A DNA stretch of 64,000 bases from assembly GCA_043228905.1 (NCBI GenBank), contig JBHGNT010000014.1, forward strand, positions 12,834,001 to 12,898,000, read 5' to 3'. The notes under the pieces are model-generated. The model saw only the letters and a list, made by a program, of their open reading frames with translations, did not search any database and was not told where the DNA came from. Shown here one piece after another: positions 3,260 to 38,083 of the stretch; position 1 is the stretch's first letter; every line of letters starts with the position of its first letter. Origin of the DNA: Azolla caroliniana. Its lineage: Eukaryota; Plantae; Polypodiophyta. The position numbers and the translations under genes are program-made.

Positions 3260-3455
3260 CTGGTGTCGTGTTGTCACACTTGCGCGCGGGGGACCGCGGG
3301 GCCCTGAACCAAGGAGTGCGCGAAGATAAAAGGCAAAGAAAGAGAAGGAGTGAGACGGTAAGCGCCAGATGCTGGCAAGTGCAGAGCTTGCTAAACCGCA
3401 CATCCACCGGCATGCACCAGAAAGAGACAGATACCAGGATATAACCGACCCGTGG

Positions 3456-6380
3456 TCAACCTTCGCTCTTTGAATTATCGTCCGCTCTCTCCGGGACTGG
3501 CCTGTCTTCGTGCCACTTCTTGAACGCCTTGATTCTCTTCCCCACCATCGGTACCGCTATCCGTGTTCCGTCGAGCTCCACGGGATGGTAGGTGCCGTTG
3601 CTGTTCGCGCCCGTTACGACGTAGGGCCCATAGGGCCCGACCACCTCCTCGCGAATTACGCATTGCCTTGTGTTGATTGTTGAGGCTGCTGTTGTAAACC
3701 AACACCCAGTCGCCTTCCTCGATCTTCTTCGGTCGTAGCCGGTGCGTCCAGTCGAACCAACCTTTATTCTTCACCCTCCAGCGTGCAGCTTCGCCTTCGC
3801 CCGGTCCACGTCCTCTGGTCTTCGCTCGAGCTGGCGAATCCGCGCCGCCAACAGCTCTTCCCGACCCATCTCGTCTCTCCAGTCCACTACTGCCCCTGAG
3901 GAAATCGTCAGCTCCATCAGCATGATCGTGTTTTGCCTGTACATCAGCTCTACCGGCATGACCCTGATTACCGAACTGTGCATAGTTCGATCTGCCCATA
4001 ACGCGTAAGGTAGGATTCGCGGCCAGTTACCGACTTGTCCTTCGCACGCTCGTACTACGCCTTCACAATTGGCCCGTGTCCGCGCTCTACCTTCCTGTTC
4101 GCCTCCAGATTTTATGTTGTAGTGAGAGAGAGCTTAACCCCTAACTAGCCGAACAACTCCTAGGCTTCCTGCGCGTCCAACTCTCCCTGGTTAGCCACGA
4201 TCTTCCCTATGCACCCGTACCGGCATATGACCTCCTCGATCAGGAACCGACAGATGGCCGTAGTCGTCTTGTTCTGTAGCGCACGACCCTCCACTTGGTT
4301 CGTCAGGTCCTCTCGTGCAAGTGCTAGGTACCGCATCTACCCTACCCCCCATCGACATCGTCACTAAGTCCACCATCCACTTGAAATGGATAGTCGGCAG
4401 GTAGGTCGGGTGCAGCTCGTCTCGGTGTCGGATCGCGGAATGCACTTGGCAGTTTTCACAGGTTGTCACGAATTGGTGCACGTCCTAGTACATTCCTGGC
4501 CACCAATATTTCTCCTTCAGCTTCTCGAATGTAGCCCATGTTCCGCGGTGTCCGGCCCAAGGGCTATCGTGATACGCCGTTATCAATGCCTTCTGTTTCT
4601 CTACTCTTGCCGCTATGCGGAGCGGGACACGTTTCGCTTCTTCGGATGCCTCCATAAGTTGCCATCCCGCAGGAAGAACCAGTACGCCTTCTTCCGGATC
4701 CGGTTGGCCTCGTCCTTCGTCCATGCGGCGTCTGGTGTCAACGTCTTCAAGTACCTGCCGATCTGGAGCCATTCCCTGTCGTACTCGCCTTCATTAAATT
4801 TGTTAAGTGCCGGAGTGTGCTCTTCTCTTGCTGCTACGCGTGCCCACTCGAAGAAGTCTACGCCGACTTCTTCGTCTTTAGAAACCATGTTGTCTTCATC
4901 ATCAAAACGTGCTATGGAAAGCATATCAGCCATGGCGTTGTCCTTCCCAGAGATGTGTTGTATCTCCGGATTGAGGGACTTAATGTATGCGATCCACCTG
5001 AGCATTGCCAGGTCCGACGTCGTGCATCTGGAAACCATACTGAGGATCGGTAGGTAGTCCGTCTCGATTATTACCTCTGTCCCAATCAGATAGTCTTTGT
5101 CGACCTTGACTACCGAAACGATACCCAGAGTTCATGCTTAACCTGGGAGTATCCTCGCCGCCATTCACTTAGTACCTTTGTTCCGAATCAGATGGGGAAC
5201 CTTGTGCCATTCTCATCCTCTTGGTTGGTCACCCATCCAATCCCAGTCGGACTCGTATCCACGGTCACATAAATCGGGACCCCCCTTCGTAAACCACTTT
5301 CCGGAGTGTTGGTGCCGCGGTTAACGCCGCCTTCAACCGTCAGACCAACTCCGCCTGCTCTTCTCTCCATTCAAACTTACGAGCCCTTCTTCAACAACCC
5401 GTACATCGGTTCTACGACGTGTGTGTAGTGTGGAATCCAGATGTGGTAGAATGCACACATGCCCAGGAATCTCCGGACCTCCGTAACCTACTTGCATTCT
5501 TCTTTCATTACGGAGATGGCTTCTACCTTTGTTGGAGACGGTTTCTGGCTACAAGGCCCACACAAGTGCCCAACCACCAAGATTTCGAACTGCCCGAAAG
5601 CCGACTTCTCCCTGGAGAAGGTGAGCCGCGCACCCTCGAGCCTTTGTAGCACCTTCTCGCAATCGTCGATGTGATCCGCCACGAACCTTCGGCATCCATC
5701 TGGCCCGACTGAATCATCCTTATCTTCCACTGGACACCCCTTGATCGGGATGTCATCCAAGAATGGCATGGTGATGTCCGGGATACAGTCCCTTAGCACC
5801 TTGTTCATTGCGTTCACCATGTGCACCACCGAGTTGGTTCCTCCTTGTGGCAGGGTACACATCCGCACTAAACGGAGAGGAGTCCGCATGGTCGTAATAT
5901 CCCTGCTCTCTACGGCTAGTTGGAATTGATTGTATCCTGAGTATAATCACCAACTGAATAGATCGATCTTCCAGTGAAGGCCTTTGCAAACTCATCAATA
6001 GTCGGCCCGATCCCTGCATTTCGTATAATCACTTTGTTGACTAGCTGTAGGTCTTGAATGAAGTGCAACGCGCTGTTCTTCTTCGGGACCGTAAACCACC
6101 GATTTGAATACGGGGCATCTCCACCTTATGCTGACCTTCGTTGAACCAATGGTTATCTTCACAATACCGCATGCATCGTGGAACCTCAAACCAATTCCTG
6201 TACCAAGAGCTCACATCCCGAAATTGATGGATCTATTGAAGCATAAGGTGGAGATGGGCATCCTTGACACCGGTTATCTTACAACCTCCGCTACTGGAGA
6301 ACCAAAACTTCCTACCTATGGTACATGTTTGGGGTTCCTCCGGGGTGTCCGGACTATTGCGGCCCCACGCCTTGATATCC
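3456..6380 (-). pseudogene. pol: pol (RT-RNaseH-integrase) of element D, frameshifted and deleted
   Basis: Fragments TLPQGGTNSVVHM..PFLDD, LRWIAYIKSLNP, HRGTWATF, FKWMVDLV, GPY homologous to ORF 13017. Confidence 0.85.
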
Positions 6381-7439
6381 CTATCTAAAAATCCCCTCGG
6401 CCGTCGTAGCCGAGGGTCTCTCGGTTGTGCTCGTGGTTCGGTCGTACCATCAAGAACTAGACGGAGTGACATTCATCTTGGCTTTTTACCCCTGCGTATG
6501 CCGAACCGTTGTCCAACACCTTGGTCTCCATACGGGCTGCCATAATGTATGGCTCGCCGAGAATAACTGGGTGCGAGGATGTTCCCTACACGAAGAAGTG
6601 CTAATCTATTTCGACGTCGCTGATCTTCACACGCACATTCGGGCACGCTCTGTGTAGCTCCTTCGTAGCGCGTGTAGCCGCACGTATTTTCCACCCGTGC
6701 TTAGTGTTGATCGACCATTTTCCCTTTTTTGTAGAAGTCCATGGACATTAGGTTTATTTTGGAGCTGTGGTTTGTCAATGCTACCACCGGCTCTTGGACG
6801 TTCCCGATCCAGATCCTGGCTGACGCTGAATAGTGGACGACCTCTACATGGTGCACCGCACCTTCCTCCATTAGCTGTTTCATTCCGCCACGTCCGGTAT
6901 TCACCTCCAGGGCTCTCCGGGTGTCGCTAGCGTGCACCCGCTCGTTCCACAAGTAAATTCCGCGCAATCTCTTCTGTTGTGTCTGATCGCGTTGTACCAC
7001 ATGCATCGTTGTCCGGCTGGAGGCCTCCGGTCACGCGATTGTTCTCCACTGTCTCTCCGAGCCTGTGTAACTGGAGGTCACGCACCATCTCCATTAGTTC
7101 TTCTAAAGCCGCTCCTCCGGATGGGCCCTTGACCATGCTGGAGCACCTCCGCGTGGATGCCCCATGTCACCACCCGAGGGAACTCGAACAGTCGTATCTC
7201 CTCCGGGATGTCCCTCATTATCATCTCGGCCCGATAGGCCTCCAAATAACTTGTTGCGTTCTTTCCCCCGAACCGGCCTATCATGCCGACAATAGACTCA
7301 ATGGCCATATCGAGGGTACCCGTACCCTCACGAGCGCTCACTAGCCGGTCGACGGCTACCGCCATGGCTTCGGCGAGTTCGGATCCTCTCATCTTCCAAC
7401 TCCTCTACCTCCTTGTTTCACGTCGGGTTCACCAAATAA

Positions 7440-8198
7440 TCTCGTGTTATCATGCTTGCGCGTAGGAAACTAAGGCGGGACCGCGGGGGCCCTGAACCGA
7501 GGAGTGCGCGAAGATAGAAGGCAAAGAAAGAGAAGGAGTGAGACGGTAATCCCTAGATGCCGGCAAGCGCAGAGCTTGTCGAATCAGACAATGACACGAC
7601 AACACACCAAGACAGACAACGAGTCGCAACGATTTAGAGAAGATTGCAACTGAGCAGAGATCACACTTAGGAAGAATCGATTACAACTAATCAGAGATTA
7701 CAACTTAAGAAGAGTTGATTGCAACTAAACGGAAATTACAACTGGCACGTCGACGTCCTCGCCAATCACTCACACTCACACACACACACACCAGGTCCAA
7801 AGTGTGTTGAGTAGCTTCTTCCAGAAGCACACGGGCTTTCCTCGTGAACAGAGGCATCCACCTAAGAATCCTACAGAGATAACAAAAGAAATTGGTGCTC
7901 GGTTCCCAGTCCGACAACACCTCCCCCTCTGCCTAAAAACGATCCCTCTCTTAGTCTTTCTTTCCCCTGTTATAGGCCATTGAGGGTGGGCCATTACACC
8001 CTTGTTACATCACCTTTATTCTCTATCCCGTCGGACAGAGATGTGTCTTGATTTGCTAATCTATTAACATGTTTATATTTACATCACGCCGGCCTATTCT
8101 TAAATAAGGTACTTAACTTAAATCGGTGCGAATCCGTGTAAAACCCGTTCACGTGCTAGGACTCCCAATTCCTCCTAGGGCTGGTTTTCTCCACGACA
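7440..8198 (-). repeat. 5' LTR of element D
   Basis: Adjacent to Trp PBS; similar to remnant at 3264-3430 and to LTRs of element B; contains GATTACAACT repeats and a CA microsatellite. Confidence 0.8.
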
Positions 8199-8202
8199 CC
8201 GG

Positions 8203-8893
8203 TCCATGACTTGGTCTATGGTCCTAGTTTGGGAATCAATTACCGCACACATTGTTCAGAGAGGTTCTCGAAGCGCTACCAAAAATATCACTTTCACTTC
8301 TTCTTCCGATGGTGCTCTGATGAGTTGACTGTGCAACGTCTGGAATCGGATGATGAACCACGACATGGTTTCTGTTGGTTCCTACCATGTCGTGTAGAAT
8401 TGACTAACGATTTCCCTTTGTTCCACTTTCCTGTGGAAGAAGCGCAAATTTTTTTTCTTTAATTCTTCAAAGGTGGCAATGCTGCAGGGAAGGTGCTTGT
8501 TGTGCCATCGTGCCGCCAGTCCTTCCAGGGTCATGCAGAATTCTGCTAGCTTCGAGTGTTTGGCCTCTGCTTCAGTTGGTTGTTGTGAAACATGGTTCAC
8601 TTTCCATGTTTGGAGAAAGGTGCAGATGTGGGCCTCCGCGTCCGGGTCATCTATCAGATACTGGTACAACATGGTGTTGTCGTCTATCGGTTCAGCTGGA
8701 GGTTGTGTCGGTACCCGCTCCTCTTACTTCTTTGGTGACTCAAGTGGTGATGTCGGAGCACGTTCCTCCTGAGTCTCCAATTGGTTGTGTGGTGATGTCG
8801 GTGTCGTAGTGTATTTCGTACACTACATGAAAAACGGATCCAGCGCCAAAAGGCACGACATCGGTACTTGCTCGTCTGAACCTGGTTCGTTGA
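8203..8893 (-). pseudogene. gag: gag (capsid region) of outer host element, interrupted by the 59-bp insert
   Basis: DPDAEAHICTFLQTW...EFCMTLEGLAARW...QREIVSQFYT homologous to gag at 25900-26400. Confidence 0.75.
8802..8860 (+). mobile_element. 59-bp miniature element/solo mini-LTR of the Trp-primed family
   Basis: TGTCGTAGTGTATTTCGTACACTAC...AAAGGCACGACA, matching the left and right ends of elements C and A; perfect 4-bp TSD TCGG (8798-8801, 8861-8864). Confidence 0.9.
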
Positions 8894-9428
8894 CCAGTGT
8901 CGTGTGGTTTTTCACACACGATATGAAAACTAGTAAAATAAGTATTTACAATTAGCTTAATGGATTAATATGGGAAGATAAATATCTTCAAGAGCTTCAT
9001 AACGCACTTTTCTATGGATGAAACGGATAACGAAGTATCAAGTTATGTGTGAATATAAAGTTTGAGAGGATAAAGAAAATAGAATTGTGAAATATCCCAC
9101 ATAGATAGGAAACTTTAGGATCCATCTATATAAGCACATTGAGAACTATTAGTTTTTATCTATGTGTTGAGAGCACAAAAGGAATGGTTAGACTTAGACC
9201 AATTTGTCTACATGGACAAATGTGGCTAAGGAAACCGGAAACCGGAAACCAGAAACCAGAAACTAGAAATTGGATGCAACCAGCAACCGGAAAGCGGATG
9301 GAGCCTATGATTGGATAGAACCAGCAACAAAACTGGGAACCGGAAACTGGAAACTAGATGGAGCTGGTGACGAAGTTGGGAACCAGAACTGGATGACGAC
9401 GGAACTGCAACTGGCAATCAGACGGAGC

Positions 9429-9897
9429 TGTTGTCCGCTGGAATAGTAACCAACGGACAGGAGCGTAGAAATATAGAATATAGTAAAAACGTAACGCATG
9501 TAAACGGTTCACGCGGGAAGCGTGAATGGCTAAAAGACCCTATGTATATAAAGGGCAGAAATCCTCTGATAGAGGTAGCGTGTAATTTTGAATGCAGAAA
9601 GCGTATCTTAATAGAGTTCTATCTTCTCTAGTCCTTGTGCTTATCTGTGGTTAATCTACTATGTGTCTGTGATTCTTGGTGGTGTAGCGTAATCGTAAGA
9701 GCGTAGGCGTGAATGATAGTGTGGTTACTAGTGCACGGTCTAAGGAGTTCGGTTGTAGTTGTCTCCCTTATACACTACTAGGATACGGGACGTATCCCAT
9801 TAAGTATTACAATACAACAGTACCATTCATTGCAATGCAGTCACTTTGAGGTCTAGGTCGAAGGACTGATTGTAGACCGTGTTCCTAATCGGTAACA
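9429..9897 (+). repeat. 5' LTR of Athila/Tat-like element
   Basis: Direct repeat of 33911-34379. Confidence 0.92.
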
Positions 9898-10016
9898 CTT
9901 TTGGCACGCTTGGTGATCTGTGTCTCTTCACAGACAAACAGTGACGAATGGATGTTTAGCCGTAGACGTCCCAGAGAACCAACACGACAAGACCGACCAA
10001 TCACACGGTGTCGCGT

Positions 10017-10804
10017 TGTCGTAGTGTAGGTTGCACACTATGTGGAAATTATATTTTTGTCCCTCCGGATAGAGAATGGAGTGCTCGGTGAGAACCGGAA
10101 GAAAGCGGCATACCGGCAAGGAGGAAAAACGGCATACCGGCAAGGAAGAGCCGGATAAAGAGACATAAATGTAAAAAAAAGGAAATACTCACTACTGCGC
10201 AAGGCGTGATTCGAACTCTGCACCTCCACGTTGACAAACCCCAACCTTACCATTACATTAAATTATCTTAAGTGTTTTAAATATAGATTTAATATGTATA
10301 AGACCTTTATTTATGCATACCTTTATTAAAAGGTAAATCGTGTATTTCTTTAATATATGAAAAAGAAAAAAAACACGAGACACTAAAAATAACTCATGCA
10401 CATCTAGCGTGCATGAGCCCTATACTTAGGAAATAAATAAAAAAAAAGCATCACATGCACATTTAGTGTGCATGAACATATGAGAAAAAGCATGTAGCTA
10501 TGCTTAGTCTCTCCCATCACTATATAAGGATGGGGAGCACATTGTAGTTGTTGTTGATTATTTGGATTAAGTATTAATCAATACAAAAATTATTCGTGGG
10601 ATTCACGATTTATACATCTACTTCTCTCTTAACACCCTAAGTACCAATTAATATAGTATACTCGTGTGATTCACGAGTTTCTTATCTTTCTCTTCGCTAT
10701 TTATTCATAATTAATCTCTATCTCACGAACTTCTTTCTCCTAGTCCAAGACCTCTGTGGTTCCCACCCGACTCACGCAACGATCCGGAGCCGAAAGGCAC
10801 GACA
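10017..10804 (+). repeat. 5' LTR of element A
   Basis: TGTCGT...ACGACA termini; TATA-like TATATAA near 10521. Confidence 0.97.
10196..10267 (-). ncRNA. Degenerate tRNA-like module (A box/B box, GTC in anticodon position) inside LTR U3, followed by T8; second copy at 16651-16722
   Basis: TAATGTAATGGTAAGG...TTGTCAA...GAGTTCGAATC with canonical tRNA spacing; stems pair poorly. Confidence 0.5.
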
Positions 10805-10808
10805 CAGT

Positions 10809-10825
10809 TGGTGAACCCGACGTGA
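10809..10825 (+). promoter_or_regulatory. Primer binding site, tRNA-Trp
   Basis: TGGTGAACCCGACGTGA complements the 3' end of plant tRNA-Trp(CCA) (...TCACGTCGGGTTCACCA). Confidence 0.85.
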
Positions 10826-10842
10826 AGACGGGTGGCAAGGAG

Positions 10843-12882
10843 ATGGAGGCTCAACAAGCTAACAATATGATGGCGATGTTCGAACGGATGCTTCAAGAAC
10901 AACGCACGATGTCGGAGATTTCGGCATCAGTAGAGCGGCTCGTGCAACGCAACGGGCAATTTAATGGTAAGGATGTGTCGCGATATTTGCAGGACTACAA
11001 GGCGGAGATGCTCCGGTGCCGGGCTTCGGAAGGACTGCAAGTGACATCCTTTAACCGAGTGGCGACCGACGGGCTTCAAGGGAGTATCCACGGGTTGCAA
11101 CAACAAAATCCGACGTGGGAAGCATTCGAAGAGGCGTTAAAGACCACGTTTGCCATCGAGGACTCCTCCAAGGCAACGCGGAGGGGATTCGAGGATTGGG
11201 TGGAAACGTCAGGTAAGGGGCTGAAGGTCCTCGAAGTGTTTTCGGCATTCGAAAGTCGGTTCGGGAGGTTGTCCGCGAGAGATCAAACTATTCTTGCACC
11301 GGACAAAGTCATCATGTTTTTGCGAGCTGTGGACGTCCGGGACCGGAAAGATCTCGGAGTGCTTCTTGAGGACACGACCACCGAAAGCGGCCTCACCGAA
11401 ACATGGGAAAGCGTGCGGGATATCGTCGCACGGTACACGAAGAGGGGGCAATGGCTTGCCAACGAAGAAAAGAGGGTTTCGGAACCGATTCCGAAACCGA
11501 GAACGGGACTGGAAGACCATCAACCGAGGGCTCGGGAGATTACGGCCGAGAAGGGAGTCGACGCGTCTACGGTGGAGCAGCTGCTGAAGGAGATGGAGAA
11601 TCTAAAGATCGCGATGGTGAAGAAGTCGGATGACCGCCCCACAAGCTCCAAATATACGGATCGACGGTGCATATGGTGCGATAGCGCCGAACACGATCGG
11701 AGGGATTGCGACGACCATAAGGAGGCGCTACGACGGGATCTCATCTACTACGAGGGAAACCGGATTCATTCGATGGACTCTCGGAAGCCACTCCGACCGA
11801 ACTTCCGGAAAGGCGGCATGAAGAAGGTGCTCGAGGAGGAGTTAGCGGCAAGAAGCAACTATGCGACAACCGCGGGAATATGTGTCGGGGAGTCAACGGG
11901 AGCGAAGGCGTCTTTCTGGCCGGAGGTGCTAGGAAACACCGAGAAAACCGACTCCAACGATATCCGAAACACCGCGGAAGGCGTCCGGGAAGCTACGGGA
12001 TGGGAGTGCCCTGTCGACAAGAATAGCATATACGCCCTGTGTCAATTACATGAGGTGTATGTGGACGAGAAACGACGGCGCACGGAGGATGCGGCCGGAC
12101 CATCGAAGATACCGGAAAGCTGGAACTCCGGAGGTAAGGGAAAAGAAAAGGCGACTCCGGCATTCAAGCTCGCCTCGGACATAGAACAACAAACCGACTT
12201 GAAAAGAGTGTTCGAGGAAAGAATCTTGGATAGCCGGGTAGATTTTTCGCTGCGGGAACTACTCGGAATAGCGAAGAAGGAGTTTCACGATCTTCTCGTG
12301 GATCTCGTAAAAAGGAAGAGACAAAGTACGGAGGAAAATGCTCCAAGGGTGAATGCAAATACCGTTTCAATGAACGACACCGAAGTGGAAGGCGAAATTC
12401 CGAACTCCCACTATACAAGGCCACACTGGGCACGTGCGACTACGGAGACTCCGGTCCGAATCGGCAACATCAAAGAACCCGTGCTAGCATTGATTGATCA
12501 CGGATCGGAGATCAACTTGATGTCCAAGGAGTTCTACCGAAAGGGGAAGTGGCCTATAAACACCAACCATGGATGGAAGATTCGGGCAGCCACGAAAACG
12601 ACAGAAGACCTATTTGCGGCTTGTCCGGATGTGACGGTAAAGATCGGGGATGTCGAAATTGACCAAAATTTCTTTGTGCAGGATGAGGTTTCACATTCTG
12701 TCATCCTCGGCCAACCCTTTATCACGGCTTCACGGATGGAGACGAAGGTGCTCGATAGTGGTGCGGCTTTTGCGCGAATTCGGAGCCAAAACGGAGGGAA
12801 ATCCGTCCAATTCTTAACGGTGCCGGCAAATCACGAAAGGAACAAGAGGGAACTCTTGTCCCAAGTGAGAATGGATTTTTAA
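10843..12882 (+). CDS. gag: Gag-protease polyprotein of element A
   Basis: First ATG after PBS; CCHC knuckle CIWCDSAEHDRRDC; aspartic protease-like ALIDHGSEINLM...ILGQPF. Confidence 0.92.
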   Translation: MEAQQANNMMAMFERMLQEQRTMSEISASVERLVQRNGQFNGKDVSRYLQDYKAEMLRCRASEGLQVTSFNRVATDGLQGSIHGLQQQNPTWEAFEEALKTTFAIEDSSKATRRGFEDWVETSGKGLKVLEVFSAFESRFGRLSARDQTILAPDKVIMFLRAVDVRDRKDLGVLLEDTTTESGLTETWESVRDIVARYTKRGQWLANEEKRVSEPIPKPRTGLEDHQPRAREITAEKGVDASTVEQLLKEMENLKIAMVKKSDDRPTSSKYTDRRCIWCDSAEHDRRDCDDHKEALRRDLIYYEGNRIHSMDSRKPLRPNFRKGGMKKVLEEELAARSNYATTAGICVGESTGAKASFWPEVLGNTEKTDSNDIRNTAEGVREATGWECPVDKNSIYALCQLHEVYVDEKRRRTEDAAGPSKIPESWNSGGKGKEKATPAFKLASDIEQQTDLKRVFEERILDSRVDFSLRELLGIAKKEFHDLLVDLVKRKRQSTEENAPRVNANTVSMNDTEVEGEIPNSHYTRPHWARATTETPVRIGNIKEPVLALIDHGSEINLMSKEFYRKGKWPINTNHGWKIRAATKTTEDLFAACPDVTVKIGDVEIDQNFFVQDEVSHSVILGQPFITASRMETKVLDSGAAFARIRSQNGGKSVQFLTVPANHERNKRELLSQVRMDF

Positions 12883-12936
12883 AGCGGACTGTTGCGGAGT
12901 GGGGAAGTGATAGTCCGAGAAGCCCTGATACCCCAC
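12873..12936 (+). other. Putative -1 ribosomal frameshift site G_GAT_TTT with downstream pseudoknot
   Basis: pol frame is -1 to gag and open back to the heptamer; stem 12885-12895/12907-12917; loop GTGGGG pairs with CCCCAC 12931-12936; conserved in B and D. Confidence 0.75.
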
Positions 12937-15900
12937 ACAGGAAGAAAAGTCTCGGAGCAAAACAAGTACGAATCGGCCCGGATGGGGCATCTACGTACAC
13001 GGCCGTAACCGGAGGAATGAAGAAACAATACCGACAAGTGGAGGATAAGTTACGGTCGGCATCAATAATAAAAGAAGACGAAGAAATCGTGGGAGTGATC
13101 GAGGAAGTGTTCTATGGGAATACACTACAACGGCTTGAAGAGCTTGCGGAAGATAAAAGCCAAGGGAACCGGGTAGTCCCGGTGGAATCGGTCGAGATGT
13201 ACGAGATCGTTGCGAAAATGGGGCCGGGTGCGCTCCGCAAAGAAGAAGCAATGGTAAGTATGAAATACAAGACCGTGGAGAAGAAGGTGAAACCGGCCGC
13301 GGGACCACTACCCGCCGATAGCGAACAAAAGAAGAAAGAAGTCTCGGGAGATCCGACACTTCGGAAGTCCGTGGATATCGGACATGCCTTCACAGATGAG
13401 ACCCGGAAGAAACTTCGGATCGGTGGAGGTGGGTTCCTCTTACAAGAAGAAGAAAAACGGTTTCGAGAGATGTTGGAGCAACATGGCAAAGCATTCGCGT
13501 TCACATCGAGGGAGATCGGATGCATTGATCCAAAGATAGTGGAGCCGATGGTGATTTTCACGATTGATCATGTACCGTGGAACCTGAAGCCGATTCCGGT
13601 GCCACGGGCGCATATTCCGAAAGTCATCGACTTGCTCAAGGAGAAGGTGGCGATGGGGATTCTAGAGCCATCAAGTGCTCCGTACTCAAATCGATGGTTT
13701 ACGGTTCCGAAGAAGAATGGGTCACTCCGATTCATCCAAGACTTGCAACCGGTGAACAAGGTCACGATCCGGAACTCGGGAGTCGGTCCGATAGTGGACG
13801 AATTCGCGGAAGCTTTTGCCGGACGTGCGATATACTCCATCGGGGACCTATACTCGGGGTATGACCAATTCCAACTAGCCGTGGAGAGCCGAGACATCAC
13901 TACCATGCGGACACCGATAGGACTAGTTCGAATGTGCACACTACCACAAGGAGCGACAAACTCGGTTGCACATATGATGAACGCGATGAACAAGGTGCTT
14001 CGAGATTGCATCCCGGAGATAACGATGCCGTTTCTAGATGACATTCCGATGAAAGGATGCGCGGTGGAAGAAAAAGATGAGACTATGGATGATCGGGGAT
14101 GCCGAAAGTTCGTGGTCGACCATATTCATGATTGCGAGAAAGTGTTGCGAAAGCTAGAAGATGTGCACCTAACACTTTCCGGGGAGAAATCGGCATTCGG
14201 GCAAGAAGAAATATTGGTGGTCGGACATCTATGTGGACCCTACGGCCGAAGACCGTCACCAACAAAGATCGATGCGATTCAAGCTATGAAGGAAGTATGT
14301 GAGTCAACATCGGAAGTCCGAAGGTTTCTGGGTGCGTGTGCATTCTATCACATATGGATTCCGCACTATGCACATATAGCAGACCCGCTCTATCACTTGT
14401 TGCGGAAAGGTAAGAAATTCGAGTGGAAACCGGAACACACTAAAGCCATGAGGAAGCTCAAGAAGACACTATGGAGGGCGGAATCACTTAAGAAGCCAAG
14501 CTACGAGCGGCCAATCATAGTAACGGTTGATACAAGTCCAACCGGTATCGGGTGGGTCATCAATCAAGCCGACTCGGATGGTTCGCGGTATCCGATCCGA
14601 TTTGGAGCAAAGGTCCTCAACGAAAGGCAACGCGGATATGCACAAGTCAAAAGAGAATTGTGGGGAGTCGTGTCGGCGATAAAATCGGATCGGGATTATT
14701 TGATCGGAGCTGAAGTGGTGATCGAGACGGATTGTCTTCCGATACTCGGGATGATGCGGTGTTGTACGATACCGGATGTGGCTATGCTAAGGTGGATTGC
14801 ATATGTCAAGTCACTTAATCCGGAGGTTCGACACATCTCGGGGAAGGACAACGCGGTAGCGGACATGTTATCAAGGGCGCGGTTTGAAGACGACATAACC
14901 GAATCAGATAATGAAGAAGTTTCCGAAGACTACTTCACGTCAGAACACATATGCCGAGTGAACGTGATCCGAGAATTCCGGGAAGAAGAATACGAGGGGG
15001 AAACCTTGATGATCGGGAAGATGCTACAAGAGGTCGAGGATTCAACCAATGATAAAGAAAGGAGAGCCGAGATCCGAAGGAAGAAGAGGCAAGTCCAGAA
15101 GTTCTTCTTGGAAAACGGTTTAATATGGAGGACGCCGAAAAGACCGGATGGGATACCACTTCGAGTAGTCGGGACGAAAGAGCAACGAAACCGGATAATG
15201 TCCGAGTTCCACGAATCCGATTGGGCTGGACATCGAGGAACATGGGCAACTTTTGTGAAAATCAAGCAAAGATATTGGTGGAAGAACATGTATAAAGATG
15301 TCGCGGAGTTCACAGAAAGCTGCGAGAAATGTCAAGTCTACTCCGGGGTCCGACACCGAGATGAGCTGCATCCGACATTCTCACCGACAATCAACTTCAA
15401 GTGGATGGTCGACATTGTAGCTATGCCGACCGGGATTGGACAAAAGAAATACTTGGTGTTAGCTCGAGAAGATCTCACAAACCAAGTTGAAGGTCGAGCG
15501 CTTCGGAGGAAAACGTGTGCCGCGGTGTGCCAATTTCTTTTGGAAGAAGTGTTTTGTAGGTACGGCTGCGTAGGACAAGTGATTGCGGACCGGGGAGAAC
15601 TCGACTCGGACAAAGCTAGGGGATTCTTCGCCAAACATGGAGTTCGGTTAACGTTGACAACGGCCTACAATCCGGAGGCCAATGGGAAGATCGAACGAGG
15701 ACATAGTCCGATCGTGAAAGCACTTGCGAAGGCATGCGACGGAAGGGTGAAGGATTGGCCACAAATGCTTCCGTATGCACTATGGGCGGATCGGACGACG
15801 CATAGCTCCGTGACCGGTTACATGCCGGCAGAACTCATGACCGGACAAGCACCGGTAATGCCAACGGAAACCGCAATCGCGACATGGACAATACTACCGT

Positions 15901-17259: not shown

Positions 17260-17263
17260 GCGT

Positions 17264-17677: not shown

Positions 17678-17699
17678 TCCGCCCCCACCTAACCGCGCA

Positions 17700-25024: not shown

Positions 25025-25068
25025 CTTTCTGTTCCTCTGCCGCCTGTTGACGTCAGGTTCACCAAATA

Positions 25069-25736
25069 TGTCGCGTTGTTACGCGTGTGTGTGGAGAACG
25101 AGGTGGGACTACGGGGTCCTTGAACCAAGAAATAACCGAATGAGAAGAGGGGAAGGAAACTACCAATGTACTCCGCACGCGCACAGACACACAGATTCAC
25201 AGGAGTTGCAACTAACTCCGAACAATGGAGATAGAATGAATGTATGCGTATATATAAATCAAGGGGGTTACAACCGGCAAGCCGGCGAGTGATAGGCTCC
25301 GACGCCTGCACACACACACACAGAATGCGAGATGGAGACTCTGCCGAAAGCACTCGGGCGTACCGCGGAGCAGAGTCAGCCTCCGGAAACCTGCACAAAA
25401 CGACTACGGAGAAGACAGAGGAGAAGAGCTCAGTTCCAGTTCGGCAACATTTCGTCCTCCACAAAAACACGATATCTTTCTTTACAATACCTCTCTCTCT
25501 CTTTTATAGCCTAAGGAGAGAGGCCATTACCACCCGTTACATCATGTTTATTCCCTATCCTTTCGGACAAGGATACGCCTCGATTTTCTCCCTAATGAAT
25601 GCGTGCTACCTAGGATTTCACCTCAGCCGACTGGTACCTATCTACGTACTATACAACAAAACTTGTGCCCACATGTAAGGGCCGGTTTACGCACGTTATA
25701 CCCGGTTTCCGCCTAGGGACAGTTTTCTCCATGACA
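25069..25736 (-). repeat. 5' LTR of element B (668 bp)
   Basis: TGTCAT...GCGACA termini, next to Trp PBS. Confidence 0.92.
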
Positions 25737-25869
25737 ACGGTCCATCACACGCCAGGTAGAGGAACGCGCATGGCAGAAACCTCGCCTCAGTGACCTCAGT
25801 GATACCTGTCGGGACCACAAAGACGATTTCTCGCTCCCCAAATACCTCGGCGACAAGCGGAAGCGTGCT

Positions 25870-28800
25870 CACCACATAAGCATTGTGGTCTTTCCCTGCC
25901 CGCCGTAGCGTCCAACATGGCCTTCTCTTATCCCTGCTTCAACGGCGAAACCGACGCTGCAACCCACATTCGGCTGTTCTTGAATGTCTGGAATGCAAAT
26001 CACATGGCATAGAAACTTTCCAAAGAAGTAGCGTACCATTCCAAAATGACAGAGTTCGGATTAACCCTGCATGGGAGAGCGGCATTTTGGCATTCGCAGA
26101 TGGATCTACCAACAATCACAACCTTCGACCAGCTGCAGTCGGCCTTTTTGCATTTCTTTCATCGGAGGGTGCCGCAACGTGAAATCCTCGGGAAGTTTTA
26201 TACAATTAAACAGTTGCCAACCGAGATTGTAGCGGATTTTAGTTTACGCTTCCAAAATCTACGACGAAAATTAGAACGGGGCCCGATAGTGGACGAGGCT
26301 CGGGAAACATTTCTGGCAGCTTTACGACGACCGATACGGATGACGCTCAACAACAATAGCGTGAAAGGAGAAACGATCGATATGGTCATAGAATGAGCAC
26401 TACAACTTGAGCTGGATGAAGAAGAGGAAAGGTTTTCCATGTCCTCATTACGGCAAGCGTTACCTCAGGACGAGGAACGACATTTTCGCTAGGCAATCCA
26501 GTGCACAATTTGCTTAAATTCTACGCATTCTGCAGTCGAATGCAACATGTGAATCCACTGCCCAATCTGTCACTCGAAAGCTCACACAGTCGAGCAGTGT
26601 GAGTACAATATGTTGAACAGATCCACACCCACAGTGCGAAACATGGAAACACAATGCCCCCCTCGCCGTAATCAGCAAAGGCGCCAAGAAGAACGACCCC
26701 GGTATACGGATCGGACGCGATGACCTGCACTACCGGAATCGCCGGAATAACAACGATTCCGAAGAAGAAGAGTCAGAGGATGAAGACTACCGAGCCAACC
26801 ACAGATATAATAAAGAAGGACGACGCTACGAGAATTACCATCCGACGAACAAATGGGACGGCTTCAATGGGCCTCGCGGGAAACATCGCCAGTATCGGAA
26901 CCAACAGCGGTACGATGAAAGTTCAGGCGATGACCGACACGAGGAACCGCACCGGGGACCAACAAAAACCACCACGTACGCTCAGAAGAATGAATCAGGA
27001 CCAGGAGGAGCAAGTCACACTCGGGGATCAGCACGCACCACCAGTTGCCGAGAAAGGCGAATCTAGCGTCCATTGTTTTGTTTGCCAACAGCCAGGACAT
27101 TATGCCACACAATGTCTACTACGCAATGGCAAGTGGCCCGCCGTCAATACGATTATGGCGGAAGTCCAGCAAGTCACGACACGACAACAAACAAAAAATG
27201 CTATTTGGGCCGCACAAGATGAGATACGTCTGATGGCCCAAGCATGGGTAGAAAAAGCGAATGTGACAAATACGGAACGCATGCGGAAGGAGTCCCCGAA
27301 CATTGTGGAGCCTTCGGAGGAAGATGTAATATCTCCAAATCCCTTATGGCAAGCACTGGTAGGTTGCGAGATAACATTGACCATGGAGAAGCTACTTCAA
27401 CTAGTCCCACGGTTCTGCCAGCCCATGGAGGATCGCATAATGGGCAAACCTGGGGTAGGCGTCTCCGCCAATTTTACGGACATCAGCGCCGGACCATCAG
27501 TGGTGGATCACCACAATCCGGCTATTAAGTTGATATTACACGGTCAGGAAATCACAGGATGCGTAATCGACGGCGGCTCTGACGTCAATGTAATTAGCGC
27601 GAAGACATGTGAACAATTGGGAATTTCTAAATGGGAAGCTTGCCCGTTTTGGCTTCGCATGGTGGATACCCGCTCCGTACGGCCTTTAGGCTTAATATGC
27701 AAGTTAGGCATAATCGTTGGAGGACATCGCTTCAACGTCTCGGCGGTGGTCCTCGTCCTCGATGCCCCAGGATCATATCCTATGCTGCTTGGTAGATTGT
27801 GGCTTTGTTCAACGAATATCAAACAGAGCTGGCAACATAAGTGCATCAGCTTTCGACGCGGACGCACCAAGGTTCGCATACCAACAGAGGAAATGGCGGC
27901 ACAACCGAAGGGCATCACAACATTATACGTAGAAGACATAAATATGATGGCTGGGATGTATACTTAGACGAGCACCCCCGGATCATTCCGCTATTCGAAA
28001 TCGGCGCCATAGAAGCCGCGACGGAATATGCCACGCCCACGGTGCTCCACGACGAGGCTTACGAACCAGAACCGGAGTCAATATTAGAACTAAGCAGAGC
28101 ACGGGCAACGTTCGAGAGGGAAATGGAAATTTCACAACGAGTCACTGCCTCAGCCCTAGAAGAAGTAAACGTGGGTACGACATCAGAACCCCGATTCCTC
28201 TCCATCACAAAAGAATTACTACCGGATCAGAGAGACGCGATGGTAGCACTACTTAGGAAGTATAAAGATGTGTTCGCCTGGTGCCACGAGGACATGAAGG
28301 GGTTGGATCCGAAGTTCTATCAACATAAGATCAATTTAGCGACCGATGCGAAACCGGTCCAGGAGCGTCAATACCACATGAACCCAAACTACGCGGCTCG
28401 CGTAAAAGAAGAAATTGACAAACTCCTCAAGGCCATTTTACTAGTCAAACAAGCTACATGGTTAAGCCCGATAGTAGTCGTCCCAAAGAAAAATGGCAAA
28501 ATACGTGTATGCGTGGACTACCGGAAATTGAACGTCGTAACCATTACCGATGCATTCCCTTTACCGTTCACTGACAGCATACTGGACGTTGTCGCAAGGC
28601 ATGACATTACAGCTTTTTAGATGGCTTCAGTGGGTACAATCAAGTACACATGCACCCCAACGACCAAGAGAAGACGATGTTTGTCACGGACTGGGGTGTC
28701 TATGTCGCAGTCATCATGATGTTCAGGCTAATGACGGCGCTGGCTACATTTCAACGGACAATCACAGAGATTTTTGGGGAATATATACCGGCCTTCACGC

Positions 28801-30870
28801 AGGTTTTTTTAGACTATTTTGCGGTATATGGGACAACAACCGACCATTTTTCGCATCTACAGCTTTGCTTGGAGCGTTGCTGAACCGCGCGCTTAAGCCT
28901 GAATCCTGCCAAATGCGCCTTCGGCGTTACCAACGAGGCTCTCCTCAGCCACATAGTTAGTAAGGAAGGGATAGTGGTCGATCCGAACAAAATCTCCGCG
29001 ATTACTCACGCGACAACACTGACAAACGCGAAAGCACTCAGCCGGTTTCTAGGACAAATACGATGGCACAGTCGGATGATACGCTATTTGGCGGACTTCG
29101 CCACGCCATTACATGTCGCCGTTCATCGTACTCCTTTCAATTGGACATCAAAGGAAGAGAAGGCATATGATGCGCTAAAGATAATGCTAACACAGGCACC
29201 TATTGTACAGCCACCAGTTTGGGCAAAACCATTCGACGTGTTCATAGATGCCTCAGACATAGCAATAGGTAGTGCGCTAATGCAGCTCACGGAGCCGAAT
29301 TGGTACCAACCAATGTACTACGCTAGTCGGAAACTATCAATGGTTGAGAGTAACTATTCCACAATGGAATGAGAAGCGTTGGGTATGATATACAACATCA
29401 ATAAGTTCCGGCATTATCTGCTAGGGCGGAAATTCACGTTTCACGTGGATCATTCAACATTGCAATATTTGGTAGGGAAACATGCGCTGACGGGGAAATT
29501 GGCTAGATGGATGTTGTTGCTTCAAGAATTCGACTTTGTAATTCAACACCGACCGGGTACGCAACACGTGGTGGCAGATTTCTTGAGCAGACTAGATAAT
29601 GGAGAAACGACGCAAAAGGATGACGACGACTTTCCGGATGCAGACATTTTGCGTGTAGCAACTCTAGCAGAACGAATGGAAAAGACTTTTCCGGATCGGT
29701 GGCTGATGGAAATGGCCTACTTCCTGACCACGGGGTTACCGCCACCCCAATTACGGACAGATGAGAAAAAACGGATGGCCGTACGGAGTCAAAATTTCTG
29801 TTTAGTAGAAGACATCCTATACCACAAAGGCAGTGACGGCATCTAGAGGGCTGAATACGGTAGGATGAGAAGGCCGTAGTTCTACGCGAAGCCCACTGTG
29901 ATATGGCGGGACGACATTACGCGGGCAATGTTACGGCCCGAAAAATCTGGCAAGCGGGACTTTGGTGGCCGACTATGCAAAAGGATGCGTATGAATATTG
30001 CAAACAATGCGATTTATGTCAACGACTGGGCCAGGCCACAGATGTCGCGAGAATGCCACACCAACTAGTGTTGCCATTGGATCCTTTCCAAAAGTGGGGG
30101 CTAGATTTTGTGGGACCCTTTACCCCGGCGGCCGCTTGAACAGGCAATAAGTATATCCTGATGGCCACGGATTACTGTACCAAGTGGGTAGAAGTGAAAC
30201 CACTACGCGAGAATACCGCGGCAGTCATGGCGAAATTCCTTTACGAACACATTTGGTGTCATTTCGGTTGCCCTATCGAGCTCATTAGTGACCAAGGGAG
30301 TCACTTTCTGAATACGGTCATTAGCGAACTGACCCAACATTACGTTGTGGTTCACAAAAAAAGTACGTCGTATTACCCACAGGAAAATGGCTTGGTAGAA
30401 TCCACGAACACAACCCTACAAACTATCCTCAAAAAGATAGTCAATGAGAACAGAACGGATTGGGATACCAAATTGCATAGCGCGTTATGGGCATACCGTA
30501 CCAGCTATAAGACTAGCATACAATGAACGCCTTTCAGGCTAGCATTTGGGCTAGAGGCCGTGATGCCAGTCGAATTCCAGGTACCCAGTCTACGGATTCA
30601 AGTACGAGCCCGGCTGCCAAAGGGCAAATCTAAGCAAATATGGCTACAACAACTGTTGGAGCTAGGCGAAACACAGTTACGCAGTATGGCCATATTGGAG
30701 CAGGAACAACAGAAGCGCAAAGCATTCGTGGACTGACACCGACATGCGCGGGAAAAAGATTTTACGGTTGGGAAAGCGGTATTAGTTTTCCAAGCAGGGT
30801 ACGTTGGACAGGCCCGTACTGGATAGTGGGAGTGGAATAGGGTACGTTTCAACTTGGCACGTTGGCCGGA
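25870..30870 (+). pseudogene. pol: gag-PR-RT-RNaseH-IN of Athila/Tat-like element, multiple stops and frameshifts
   Basis: CFVCQQPGHYATQC, CVIDGGS, VCVDYRKLN, DASDIAIG, KWGLDFVGPF, ISDQGSHF; collinear with ORF 60023. Confidence 0.92.
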
Positions 30871-31249
30871 TAGGACAAAGCCGGGAAATCTGCGGTAAAT
30901 ATTGTATGTAACCGTTACGAAAAAAAAAAGAAAAAAAGAAAAAAAGAGAAGATAGCCACGCTATTAAAAGGACTTAATGCATGCACAAACTTCTAGGCCA
31001 AGAACATGCGGCATCACGATGGCTCGCCGACCAATGACCCCTAGGCCACAAAAAGAAGGAAATAGAAGGTTTTCTGCACAGTACAGAAACCAACCTTCTA
31101 ACTCTCATCGCTCTCATTGCTCTCATCACTCCCCTCCCTCACCCTCTTCTCCATCCTATAACAGAGCTCAAGTTCGCCATAGCCAATAGACCTGACCCAT
31201 TAACTACGAGCCTAACCATCCGACTATCCCGATACCTATTTCTGCCACC

Positions 31250-33863
31250 TTGCGTCGATGGCTCATGGAGAAACGCTTGGATGGATACATCAGAGTCGCC
31301 GAGGCACCTCCCCACCCTGATGCACTGGCCATCGCTAGGAAGCTCAATATCGACACGGTCACCAACACATCCATCCAGAAAAAGCTTGACCTGTCATCAC
31401 TAAGAGAAAGGCATTTCGAAATTCCTCATGTGGAAACTTTGCAGAGATATTTCGGGCCATATTCGGTGTCCGCCAAGGCACATAGAACGAAGGAAATCCC
31501 TGACCCCTTTTTCCGCAAAATAGCCAAGTTCCTGTTGGAGGTCGGATGCGTACATGTAAATGCATATGGGATGCCCAAGCAGAAGGCAGGTATCATCATT
31601 GATACCTTTGAAGGGTGCACGGTCGATTGGGGGGTCATTACGGGACCAACATTACGGGAAGGCCTGCACACATATCAAGGAGGCAAAAAGCTCAAGCCTA
31701 TCATACAACAGTTTATGAGGATACTATTCCAACCCCAAGGATTGCCGGCACCACAGCCCAGCAAACCCACGCCGCCGCCACAATCCGCGAAGCGAAGGTT
31801 AGTGGAGTTGGCCACCACAGAGTGGGAAGATGAACCCCAATCAGCCCAGACAAACATGTGAACAACACAGGAAGAATGGGCGGAGCGCAGCGAGGAAGCC
31901 GCATAGGAGCTAGAAGCCCAAGGAAGCCCAAGGCTGAAACGGCAGAGGCTGGACAGGAAAGATGGGCACGGGTTAGTTAAAGACAGACTCGCGGTCACAA
32001 AGACGACGACCGTGGTCGACGGCTCCGTATCTATGGAGCCCAACACCACCTTCGAAATAATCCGGGAACCATGGTCGATCATTACGACCTAGTCATAGCA
32101 GGGGAAAGGAGTATTTATGGCGGAAAGCGAGGTCCTAGCGTACTCGGACATTCCAGACACGGCCATGAGTTCGGCGCACTATTACAGTTCGGAACCACTT
32201 TTGAACTCATGGAATTTTTGGCAACACAACAAATAAAGTCTCACAACGAATGGCCAAGGAGCACGAGGTGCGCCAAATGATCGAGCGCACGCTAATACAA
32301 ACGGCGGAAAGCGATGATGAGGAGTAGTTAGCCAGAGTCGCCAGACAGTGGAACGCTGATATATTCTGAATGGGGATGGAACTACCCCCATTAAACGTGG
32401 CCCTTGTTGAAGTTCACAGGGAACTGGTGAGGGTCAATATGGGCACCAAGGATATAGTGATTAAAAATAAAAATGTTTGGAAGACTGTTAAACTGACCCA
32501 AGCCAAGCTACAAAAGGCCAACGCACGCATCGCGGAGTTGGAACGTAACGCGACTACGACACAGCAAGTAGCTCAACCAACAGCCAACATCGCCGATGCC
32601 CTAAGAGAAGAAATTGAAGCCCAGATTGCCATTGCCTCGAAAGCAAAATGGGTCGTGCAACTGGCGGAATCGGAGATTGACCGTCTCCGCTCCGAACTTC
32701 GCCAGTCCTCGGACAAAGAAAAGGACATCCGGGCCAACGGCCGAAAGGCAGTGAAGACCCTTGAAGAGAAACTCGTAGCGGAGGCAGCACAACACACCTG
32801 CACGAAAGAAGAAAACGATAAACTATGGGAAGAAGCGAAAAAATCAGAAGCGGTGATTACGGGACTTCAGGCTTTATTAGACAAGAAGAAAGCATGGTTC
32901 AACGAGCATCTAGTAGGGAAACAGGAGAGGAGGCATCAACTCGAAATCCGCCTAAACAATGAAATGGGAAAGCTAGAAGAATCACATTCGAAGGAATCTC
33001 AACTATGGGCAGGAATGAGGAGCACGTATGAGGAAGCGGTGGCGGTTAGTAAACAAGAAATCAAGAACCCCAAGAAAACCGTAGAAGAAGCACGCAACCG
33101 TTGCCAAGCAATAATCGACAACGTGGGCATACTTCTTCAAACAAATCGGGAGAGGTTTATGACGCAATTAAAAGCGGCGCTAGATAAAGGCTAGACGGCA
33201 TGGGCCGCACAAGTGGCGGAATTGCATACATATTGGGCGGACTGGGAGAACCGAAGGGAAGACGGCCGAGGGTTCTACAAACTCAATGAGGAAAGCATTG
33301 CAACAGTACACGAGGACCTAGCGCAGGACTATCGCACACTAGCGGACCAACACTCCGAGGAACTCGCGCAGCTACTAGACGATTTTGGCGAAAGTCAGGT
33401 GGACCTATTTCACCAGATCATGCAAGCCGGCAGCACGTGAACAAACGAGGAATCCATCGCGATACCAATTCTGGATACTGCCAAACAAGAGGAACCTCAG
33501 CCCATGTCACTGGAAATAACCGCTACGGTGGACAGCATGGAACGGCAAGCGGAGCCCCCCGTGATACCAGAAAGCGAAACCGCCGACCAAGAGGAACCCC
33601 AACCCCACTCACCGGAGCGTACGACTATGGCCGACACCACGGAGGAAGTTACAGACGAGATAGAACCTCGACCTACCGCGAGCCTGCCAACAGTTGAACC
33701 AACCACAATAGCACAAGATGAGCTAGTAGAGTCCGGACCGCCCACACAAGAAACCATCAACACTATGGGACAACGCAACGACGCGCCTACGGACACTACA
33801 CCGTCCCCAGACCTGGACACTGGAGCAAAACCAAACATCAGGGCCATTTTGGAGGAAGATTAA
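31250..33863 (+). pseudogene. Sense extra ORF between pol and 3' LTR: globular N-terminus, long coiled-coil, acidic P/T-rich tail
   Basis: Pieces 31250-31861, 32370-33194, 33213-33440, 33504-33863 (last three share a frame); heptad-like E/K/L/A composition. Confidence 0.7.
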
Positions 33864-33910
33864 AGGGGTGGGTCCGATGTGCCATGGGACTATCCCACAA
33901 GCATGCCATG

Positions 33911-34379
33911 TGTTGTCCGCCGGAATAGTAACCGACGGACAGGAGCGCAGAAATATAGAATATAGTAAAAACGTAACGCATGTAAACGGTTCACGCGGGA
34001 AGCGTGAATGGCTAAAAGACCCTATGTATATAAAGGGAAGAAATCCTCTGATAGAGGTAACGTGTAATTTTGAATGCAGAAAGCGTATCTTAATAGAGTT
34101 CTATCTTCTTTGATCCCTGTGCGTATCTGTGGTTAATCTACTGTGTGTTTGTGATTCTTGGTGGCGTAGCATAATCGTAAGAGCGTAGGCGTGAGTGACA
34201 GTGTGGTTACTAGTGCACGGTCTAAGGAGTTCAGTTGTAGCCGTTTCCCTTATACACTACTAGGATACAGGAGTTATCCCATTAAGTATTACAGTACGAC
34301 AGTACCATTCATTGCAACGCAGTCACTTTGAGGTCTAGGTCGAAGGACTGATTGTAGACCGTGTTCCTAATCGGTAACA
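33911..34379 (+). repeat. 3' LTR of Athila/Tat-like element
   Basis: Direct repeat of 9429-9897, followed by GGAGC. Confidence 0.92.
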
Positions 34380-34659
34380 GGAGCTGGCAATCGGCAACCG
34401 GACGCAGACCGGACGGATCGGATGGGCGATGGTCGAGATGGACGGATGATAGGATCATGCGGCGAATTAAAGTAAAGTAAAGTAAAGGCGATGTGGACGC
34501 ATGCAACCAAAAGTAAAGGCGAAGCAACTAAAAAAGGAGGCCATGCAACTAAAAGTAAAGGCGAAGCAACTTAAAAAGGTAGAGGCCATGCAGCTAAAAT
34601 CAAGCTTTATGTAAAGAGAAGAATGGACCTTAGGGGATGAAAACCATCTTTTGGGAAAA

Positions 34660-34930
34660 AAAACCCTAGATTTTCTTATTGAATCCATCTCTCACATTAT
34701 CCCTAATTTTCTTATCTGATGTATCCCTCGAGGAAGCCATAAACCCTAATTTTCCTTACGGAATCTATCTCTCACATAAAATCTAATTTTCCTTATGGAA
34801 GCTATCTATCAAAAACCCTAATTTTCCTTACGGAAGCCATATCACCCAAAAACCTTAATTTTCCTTACGGAAGCCATATCTCTAAAAAACCCTAATTTTT
34901 CTTATTTATTAATCTCTTTAAACCTAAACT
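34660..34930 (+). repeat. Degenerate ~35-40 bp tandem array (AAACCCTAATTTTCCTTACGGAA) within solo LTR
   Basis: About seven recognisable units. Confidence 0.8.
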
Positions 34931-35571
34931 TCTGTATTCCCAAATTTGGGATAGATTGTAATTTTTCTTTTTCATTGGTAATGAAAAATATCAAACTTTG
35001 TCATTTCGATTAATTGTTAAAAGTATAAACGCACAAATGTGATATCCTCTAGTCAGAGGCCCCGAGGTCCTGCCTCAAGTTCACATGTCCTTGTTGTATT
35101 TTCGCAACACTAGGGATGCCGGTTTCTTCGTTTCTAGTTCTAGTGTCGGTAGATTTTCCGAATCGTCATCGTCTAGGTCTTCCGAGGTGTCGTGATTGCT
35201 TTGGTAGTTGGATTGAACGTTGTGCTCCCTGTCCGAATCCGATTCAATCGCCGAGAACGCCCCTGAAACTCCCTCACCCACCACGAGGGTCTATAGGATG
35301 GATTCCACATTCCGCAAACTGCTCAAACTGCTTCCTTCGTCCGGGTATGGATTGTGCTGTAACCGGAGTGACTCCTCCACGACCCGCCGAATCACGCTGG
35401 AGAAAGATCGATCGGATCGGATCTCCTCAGCCACCTGGTGGTAAGACTCCCGCCTTTGCAATCTCTCAGTTAGTCTTCTCGCTCATTCGGCGACTGGGTC
35501 GTTTGTTGGCCTAGTCATCCATCCCCCCACTGTTTGCTGCTTGTTGCAATAATTGTGGTCGCCAAATTATG

Positions 35572-38057: not shown

Positions 38058-38083
38058 GTCCAGCCAAAATAGGAGTCGTTTGG

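What the first reader, a model, noticed from the sequence alone, without database searches (positions are those of the whole stretch)
3260..35113. Trp-primed Ty3/gypsy group inserts into CpG-centred 4-bp target sites (N-CG-N)
Seen: all six insertions with TGTCRT...ACA-type ends have 4-bp TSDs: A GCGT, B ACGG, C ACGC, 59-bp mini TCGG, D CTGG/CCGG, solo LTR CCAG/CTAG. Five have a central CG in at least one copy; the mismatches in D and the solo LTR are those expected from methyl-C deamination of CCGG. The four other elements with both flanks visible have 5-bp TSDs with no shared motif (GGAGC, GTATR, GCAGG, TAAAT). If a central CG occurred about 1 time in 16, five of five by chance is roughly one in a million. 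Established: plant LTR elements mostly make 5-bp TSDs with weak specificity. Inference: this chromodomain-less integrase reads CpG, possibly methyl-CpG, which would steer it into already silenced TE nests. The lineage may be a described bryophyte/lycophyte non-chromovirus clade; I cannot tell whether this target preference has been reported.
Basis: partly seen in the sequence, partly recalled or inferred. Interest (0 to 1): 0.85.

Follow-up and report, generated by a model that had tools for sequence, protein, structure and literature searches.

The report
Phygy-type retrotransposons inserting at CG sites
These jumping genes land in 4-base sites with CG in the middle, a real preference that is already published for the moss Phygy lineage, to which they likely belong; whether the CG must be methylated is untested.

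Summary
Six related Ty3/gypsy insertions have 4-bp duplications: four perfect and CG-centred (GCGT, ACGG, ACGC, TCGG), one CTGG/CCGG, one CCAG/CTAG with no CG. Four unrelated elements have 5-bp duplications. Outside the window, 13 of 17 junctions in related metagenome loci are CG-centred, 3 are TG/CA and none is TA; contigs of public runs agree. Neumann et al. 2019 (PMC6317226) state that Phygy elements prefer NCGN: 186 elements, all with 4-bp duplications, 81% Trp-primed, no extra domain. These elements match on every feature I could test except length (A is 7,243 bp; Phygy range 7,656-9,968). Placement beside reference Phygy proteins could not be run. Corrections: element ends alone do not define the group, because a chromovirus here also starts TGTCAT and has a 5-bp duplication; the solo LTR site needs three changes to come from CCGG but only one from CCAG. 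Likely mechanism: the integrase kinks DNA at a central pyrimidine-purine step, as 4-bp retroviral integrases do, narrowed to CG. Methyl-CG reading is untested.

The parts
10017..17259 (+). Element A: intact-looking Ty3/gypsy, LTRs 10017-10804 and 16472-17259, Trp primer site from 10809, gag-protease ORF to 12882 overlapping pol 12759-16484 (RT, RNase H, integrase, no chromodomain); TSD GCGT/GCGT; sits inside B's 3' LTR
   Evidence: (LTRs differ by 1 substitution and 1 gap column)
10009..25736 (-). Element B: decayed relative (RT-RNase H 73% identical to A), 5' LTR 25069-25736, Trp primer site at 25064, 3' LTR split by A and 247 bp shorter; TSD ACGG/ACGG; sits in E just past its primer site
21101..22758 (+). 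Element C: non-autonomous A-like copy inside B's pol; 95-bp 5' LTR, Trp primer site at 21200, only about 32 bp of the 3' LTR end left; TSD ACGC/ACGC
3264..8198 (-). Element D: decayed B-like copy, Trp primer site at 7434, 3' LTR largely deleted; TSD CTGG/CCGG
8802..8860 (+). 59-bp internally deleted solo LTR with both ends of the A/C type; TSD TCGG/TCGG
   Evidence: (54 of 59 bases match C's 5' LTR)
8898..35109 (+). Solo LTR of the same group (8898-9428 plus 34385-35109), interrupted by E; both ends match the Trp-primed LTR of L020; TSD CCAG/CTAG, no CG
   Evidence: 75% at the start, 81% over the last 259 columns
9429..34379 (+). Comparison: element E, a distant gypsy element (22-31% identical to A in RT-RNase H) that holds B, A and C; 5-bp TSD GGAGC
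36824..42404 (+). Comparison: chromovirus with TGTCAT...ACA ends and 5-bp TSD GTATA/GTATG; holds a solo LTR 40015-40466 with TSD GCAGG
   Evidence: (Chromo domain)
44679..50209 (-). Comparison: Ty1/copia element with 5-bp TSD TAAAT

Best explanation
These are Trp-primed, chromodomain-less Ty3/gypsy retrotransposons, likely of the bryophyte Phygy lineage, that insert into 4-bp sites centred on CG, likely because their integrase kinks the target at the central pyrimidine-purine step and reads CG there without needing methylation. Shown: the duplications, primer sites, domain order, relatedness and CG excess. Inferred: integrase joins the two LTR ends 4 bp apart on opposite strands and repair copies the 4 bases; the CG choice comes from the integrase; TG, CA and TA centres are mostly later decay of methylated cytosines, with some imperfect choices.
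For: Window: 5 of 6 sites CG-centred in at least one copy. Metagenome loci: 13 of 17 junctions CG, 2 TG, 1 CA, 1 AG, 0 TA; P=6e-13 at 6.4%. Contigs leaving the LTR's right end have majority letters ACGT (63 contigs in X5, 85 in X8, one sample). At the left end 21 of 23 listed loose-ended contigs in X8 and X11 run on through CGT. A, B and D fall in one 19-row clade (SH-aLRT 97, quick tree) beside Riccia and Adiantum proteins and far from E and the chromovirus. Phygy: 4 bp 100%, NCGN, tRNA-Trp 81%, no extra domain. Over 29 pooled junction copies T is first in 1 and A last in 1, as in the foamy-virus site VYRB, where the central step is unstacked (PMC4422553). The modelled integrase core matches foamy-virus integrase best (Z 16.9, rmsd 2.9 A, 163 residues).
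Against: No reference Phygy protein was on hand, so lineage membership rests on shared features. A (7,243 bp) is shorter than the Phygy range 7,656-9,968. The solo LTR site and L020 (AAGT) have no CG. The metagenome loci mostly carry record names of one series and L047 is 99% identical to A, so they likely sample the same or a close host. The 12 window copies in the pooled count are only 6 sites. Nothing here separates methylated from unmethylated CG.
Confidence: 0.72

Rival explanations
1. The integrase prefers methylated CG and so aims itself at silenced DNA, doing by DNA mark what chromoviruses are thought to do by histone mark.
For: No chromodomain. All six window sites lie in other elements. 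The non-CG centres are mostly TG or CA, as methyl-C decay would give. Phygy nested in Tcn1 were the commonest repeated pairs in P. patens (PMC6911290 passage), and Phygy domains are enriched at Apopellia centromeres (PMC12885004 passage). A 1992 paper on CpG methylation and retroviral integration in vitro exists (title only, seen in a reference list).
Against: Decay of a duplication shows methylation after insertion, which any silenced element gets. The window is nearly all transposon DNA, so nesting is expected.
Confidence: 0.15
2. A separate non-chromovirus clade (TatI-like, Selgy-like or unnamed) with the same CG preference, not Phygy itself.
For: TatI also has 4-bp duplications and a Trp primer (4 elements). 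Relatives reach a fern genus (Adiantum), while Phygy was defined from P. patens alone. A is shorter than any listed Phygy element.
Against: TatI carries an extra archaeal-type RNase H; Pfam shows only one RNase H in A's pol. Selgy is Ala-primed and about 5 kb. The paper names Phygy as the only lineage with a TSD motif, and it is this motif.
Confidence: 0.1
3. The CG excess comes from chance or from how the ends were called.
For: The window sample is small, and the LTR ends themselves contain CG.
Against: Junctions were called from primer-adjacent LTR ends and polypurine-adjacent LTR starts without looking at the flanks. Two contig read-outs agree. The four unrelated elements show no such motif.
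Confidence: 0.03

Closest known systems
Phygy, non-chromovirus Ty3/gypsy clade (Neumann et al. 2019, PMC6317226; REXdb)
   Same: 4-bp NCGN duplication, Trp primer site, no chromodomain, no extra RNase H, no extra ORF, coding sequence filling the internal region.
   Different: Defined from Physcomitrella patens only; listed at 7,656-9,968 bp against 7,243 bp for A. The host here is not determined, and relatives occur in Riccia and Adiantum proteins.
TatI and Selgy (same paper)
   Same: Non-chromovirus, 4-bp duplications; TatI is Trp-primed.
   Different: TatI has an extra archaeal-type RNase H; Selgy is Ala-primed and about 5 kb; no TSD motif is listed for either.
Drosophila errantivirus subgroups gypsy, ZAM and Idefix (PMC5408687)
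   Same: Ty3/gypsy-type elements with sequence-specific palindromic targets, one of which is CGCG.
   Different: Insect elements with all four bases constrained (TATA, CGCG, ATAT); here mainly the central CG is fixed.
Prototype foamy virus integrase (PMC4422553, PMC4005685)
   Same: 4-bp stagger, central pyrimidine-purine step, T and A avoided at the outer positions; best sequence and fold match in the PDB.
   Different: Weak preference for any YR step; it has a small residue (Ala188) where this clade has Glu or Asp.

Membership tests
Ty3/gypsy | LTRs and domain order gag-protease-RT-RNase H-integrase | tested here: met
Phygy | RT/RNase H/integrase cluster with REXdb Phygy references (the formal definition) | not testable with these tools
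   No REXdb library; no named P. patens protein in the 120 listed rows of either homolog search, the cluster look-up or the atlas
Phygy | 4-bp duplication with NCGN motif | tested here: met
Phygy | tRNA-Trp primer site | tested here: met
Phygy | No chromodomain, no archaeal-type RNase H, no extra ORF | tested here: met
   Pfam on A's two ORFs; integrase ends in a short acidic tail in A and in the relatives printed
Phygy | Length 7,656-9,968 bp (descriptive; the paper calls size weak for classification) | tested here: inconclusive
   A is 7,243 bp, about 400 bp below the range
TatI | Extra archaeal-type RNase H domain | tested here: not met
   One RNase H region only in A's pol; TatI 100% aRH
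Selgy | tRNA-Ala primer, 4.4-6.7 kb | tested here: not met
Chromovirus | Chromodomain at the integrase end | tested here: not met
   Pfam finds Chromo in the element at 40954-42012 but not in A
Fungal Ylt1-like gypsy elements | Clustering with Ylt1/Tca3 references | not tested
   A link through the DUF4100 gag domain is recalled; the passages of PMC2864245 that I saw name only fungal members

The most novel reading that the evidence does not exclude
Phygy-type integrases read methylated CG directly, giving an LTR retrotransposon a chromodomain-free way to aim at silenced DNA, and the trait runs through a clade spanning mosses, liverworts and ferns. Candidate readers are the Glu/Asp at the foamy-virus Ala188 position (100 of 100 motif hits) and a conserved Gln-His/Tyr loop before the GPY/F motif (77 of 83).
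Probability: 0.15. Interest if true: 0.75.

Novelty: new member of a known kind. Interest (0 to 1): 0.2.

Why it matters
As it stands it confirms, in further element families, a preference already reported for Phygy. What stays open is how CG is chosen. I found no paper on that. Element A looks recent and intact, so its integrase is a usable reagent for the test. A methyl-CG-dependent integrase would be a new targeting route; a methylation-blind one would still show how a weak retroviral bend preference becomes a near-strict dinucleotide rule.

Tried and rejected
No whole genome is held, so no genome-wide paired-TSD logo. IMG/VR gave nothing by pattern or protein. GTDB genomes gave 1 locus, L063, a 3.3-kb contig with no LTR outer end, so the target preference of liverwort and fern relatives is untested. 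In one search, 12 of 62 loci were dropped because the primer-site match did not continue as in the retroelements (none had a gag or pol hit), and 1 of 18 junction hits was a duplicate; one further ACGG junction seen by eye in L049 was not counted. One search had a threshold error and was replaced. In one search three loose-end rows were hidden, one X8 record begins at 10015 (not CG), and the short stretch favours flanks ending in T, so it tests only the two bases before a final T. The atlas gave generic gypsy clusters with no useful taxa. Earlier findings of the scan: none by sequence or words. GingerRoot is not comparable (6-bp TSD, GC-rich without motif). The P. patens RLG paper had no TSD data in the passages seen. 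The careful tree did not finish; the quick tree is quoted. L052 was entered in the wrong orientation and ignored. No base preference beyond the 4-bp core was evident in 29 flanks.

Full report
What is there. The window is a nest of LTR retrotransposons. Six insertions between 3264 and 35109 belong to one group: A (10017-17259, +), B (10009-25736, -), C (21101-22758, +), D (3264-8198, -), a 59-bp mini LTR (8802-8860) and a solo LTR (8898-35109, split by element E). A encodes gag with DUF4100 and a protease motif, then an overlapping pol with RT, RNase H and integrase and no chromodomain. Its LTRs differ by one substitution and one gap column, so it is recent. B and D are 73% and about 65-77% identical to A in RT-RNase H, while E and the element at 60017 are 22-31%. 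The solo LTR belongs to the group because both its ends match the primer-bearing LTR of locus L020.

The duplications. A GCGT, B ACGG, C ACGC and mini TCGG are perfect; D is CTGG/CCGG; the solo LTR is CCAG/CTAG. The four unrelated elements have 5-bp duplications GGAGC, GTATA/GTATG, GCAGG and TAAAT. With CG at 6.4% of dinucleotides, 5 of 6 gives P=6e-6 and 4 of 6 (both copies) P=2e-4. Two corrections: the chromovirus at 36824-42404 also has TGTCAT...ACA ends but a 5-bp duplication, so termini do not define the group; and the solo LTR site is most simply CCAG with one C-to-T change, not CCGG with three.

Tests outside the window. No genome is held. A metagenome scan for LTR end plus primer site gave 62 loci; 50 were kept as retroelements and 12 dropped. 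Calling LTR starts and ends without looking at flanks gave 17 distinct junctions: 13 CG, 2 TG, 1 CA, 1 AG, 0 TA (P=6e-13). These include families other than A's, but most records carry names of one series and L047 is 99% identical to A, so they are not independent host taxa. In contigs of public runs that hold A, contigs leaving the LTR's right end have majority letters ACGT (63 in X5, 85 in X8, one sample; overall agreement 0.38-0.39 over random flanks). At the left end, 21 of 23 listed loose-ended contigs in X8 and X11 continue through CGT and 2 stop at the LTR edge; 3 rows were hidden and one further record starts at 10015. Summed depth in X8 is 29,909 at 10015-16, 15,484 at 10013-14 and 617 at 10011-12. 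The preference is real.

What it is. Named relatives of A's pol are Riccia proteins at up to about 60% identity over the full length and Adiantum fragments. In a quick maximum-likelihood tree of 43 rows, A, B and D sit in one 19-row clade (SH-aLRT 97) beside Riccia and Adiantum rows, far from E and the chromovirus. The host is likely a bryophyte; I did not determine it. Neumann et al. [quoted passage not shown] That is this finding. TatI shares 4 bp and Trp but has an extra RNase H that A lacks; Selgy is Ala-primed. I did not see a per-element TSD table or reference sequences among that paper's supplements, so the tree-based membership test was not possible, and A is about 400 bp shorter than the listed range. 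Phygy has since been reported in a liverwort, enriched at centromeres (PMC12885004, passages), and nested in Tcn1 elements in P. patens (PMC6911290, passages).

How it likely works. Shown: 4-bp duplications with a CG centre. From published work (PMC4422553, passages): integrases with a 4-bp stagger bend the target sharply, favour a central pyrimidine-purine step and avoid T first and A last; the foamy-virus core is VYRB. Over 29 junction copies here (17 metagenome, 12 window copies from 6 sites) T is first once, A last once, C second 24 times and G third 26 times: the same pattern with YR narrowed to CG. A's integrase matches foamy-virus and Ty3 integrases by sequence, and its model (pLDDT 81) matches the foamy-virus core best. 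Inferred: flexibility alone does not explain the result, because TA, also a YR step, is absent among the 17 junctions, so some direct base reading is likely. Two leads: the position aligned with foamy-virus Ala188 is Glu or Asp in 100 of 100 relatives with the motif, among 120 examined, although such substitutions reportedly abolish strand transfer in Rous sarcoma virus integrase (PMC4005685, one passage); that residue contacts bases outside the duplication in retroviruses, so it may not read the centre. A Gln-His/Tyr loop before the GPY/F motif is kept in 77 of 83 relatives; that foamy-virus Arg329 lies in the matching loop is recalled, not tested.

Methylation. TG and CA centres fit decay of methylated CG, but that follows silencing after insertion and says nothing about target choice. 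Nesting is uninformative in an all-transposon window; 4 of 14 metagenome flanks matched known element sequence and flank CpG content varied widely. Searches for Phygy, NCGN, CG-targeting LTR elements and methyl-CpG target choice returned no test of this; the library lacks most subscription papers. CG-containing targets are also known for Drosophila errantiviruses (CGCG; PMC5408687, passages). on moss methylation was seen as a listing only and is not relied on. PMC2864245, PMC6839031, PMC7466625, PMC7910972 and PMC13469084 were seen as passages and added no target-site data for this group.

Verdict. Real, well supported, and already reported for the lineage these elements likely belong to. Interest 0.2; the open question worth an experiment is whether the integrase distinguishes methylated from unmethylated CG.

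Noticed in passing
window 10017-10050, 21101-21134, 8802-8835, 8898-8931; LTR starts of L019, L020, L034, L056: The first 30 bases of many LTRs of this group can form a hairpin whose arms change together between families (predicted -8 to -14 kcal/mol in 8 of 13 starts folded; weak or absent in B, L035, L052, L055, L061; no shuffle control). It lies just after the polypurine tract.
   Followed up: partly
window 8802-8860 and 21101-21195: The mini LTR (59 bp) and C's 5' LTR (95 bp) keep both ends of an LTR that is about 700-720 bp in L044, L048 and L054, and both deletions start just after the terminal hairpin; possibly a family of miniature non-autonomous elements. One contig joint skipping 723 bases of the LTR was seen.
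   Followed up: partly
window 22727-22758 and 3264-3390: C and D both lack the start of their 3' LTR and the polypurine tract yet keep the outer end and the duplication.
   Followed up: no
window 10009-10016 and 17260-17263: A inserted only 4 bases from the outer end of B's LTR, into a CG that lies in B's own terminal sequence.
   Followed up: no
window 44679-50209 and 50318-55534: Two close copia copies lie in opposite orientation on either side of a 100-N gap (50218-50317); the first has identical 709-bp LTRs. Could be recent activity or an assembly join.
   Followed up: no
window 1-2200: Another C-like stretch (A-type gag start followed by unrelated sequence) appears to run off the left edge (by eye).
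   Followed up: no
L063:1-3322: A plant-type retrotransposon pol (60% identical to A's integrase) sits in a contig of a cyanobacterial metagenome-assembled genome, likely plant contamination.
   Followed up: partly
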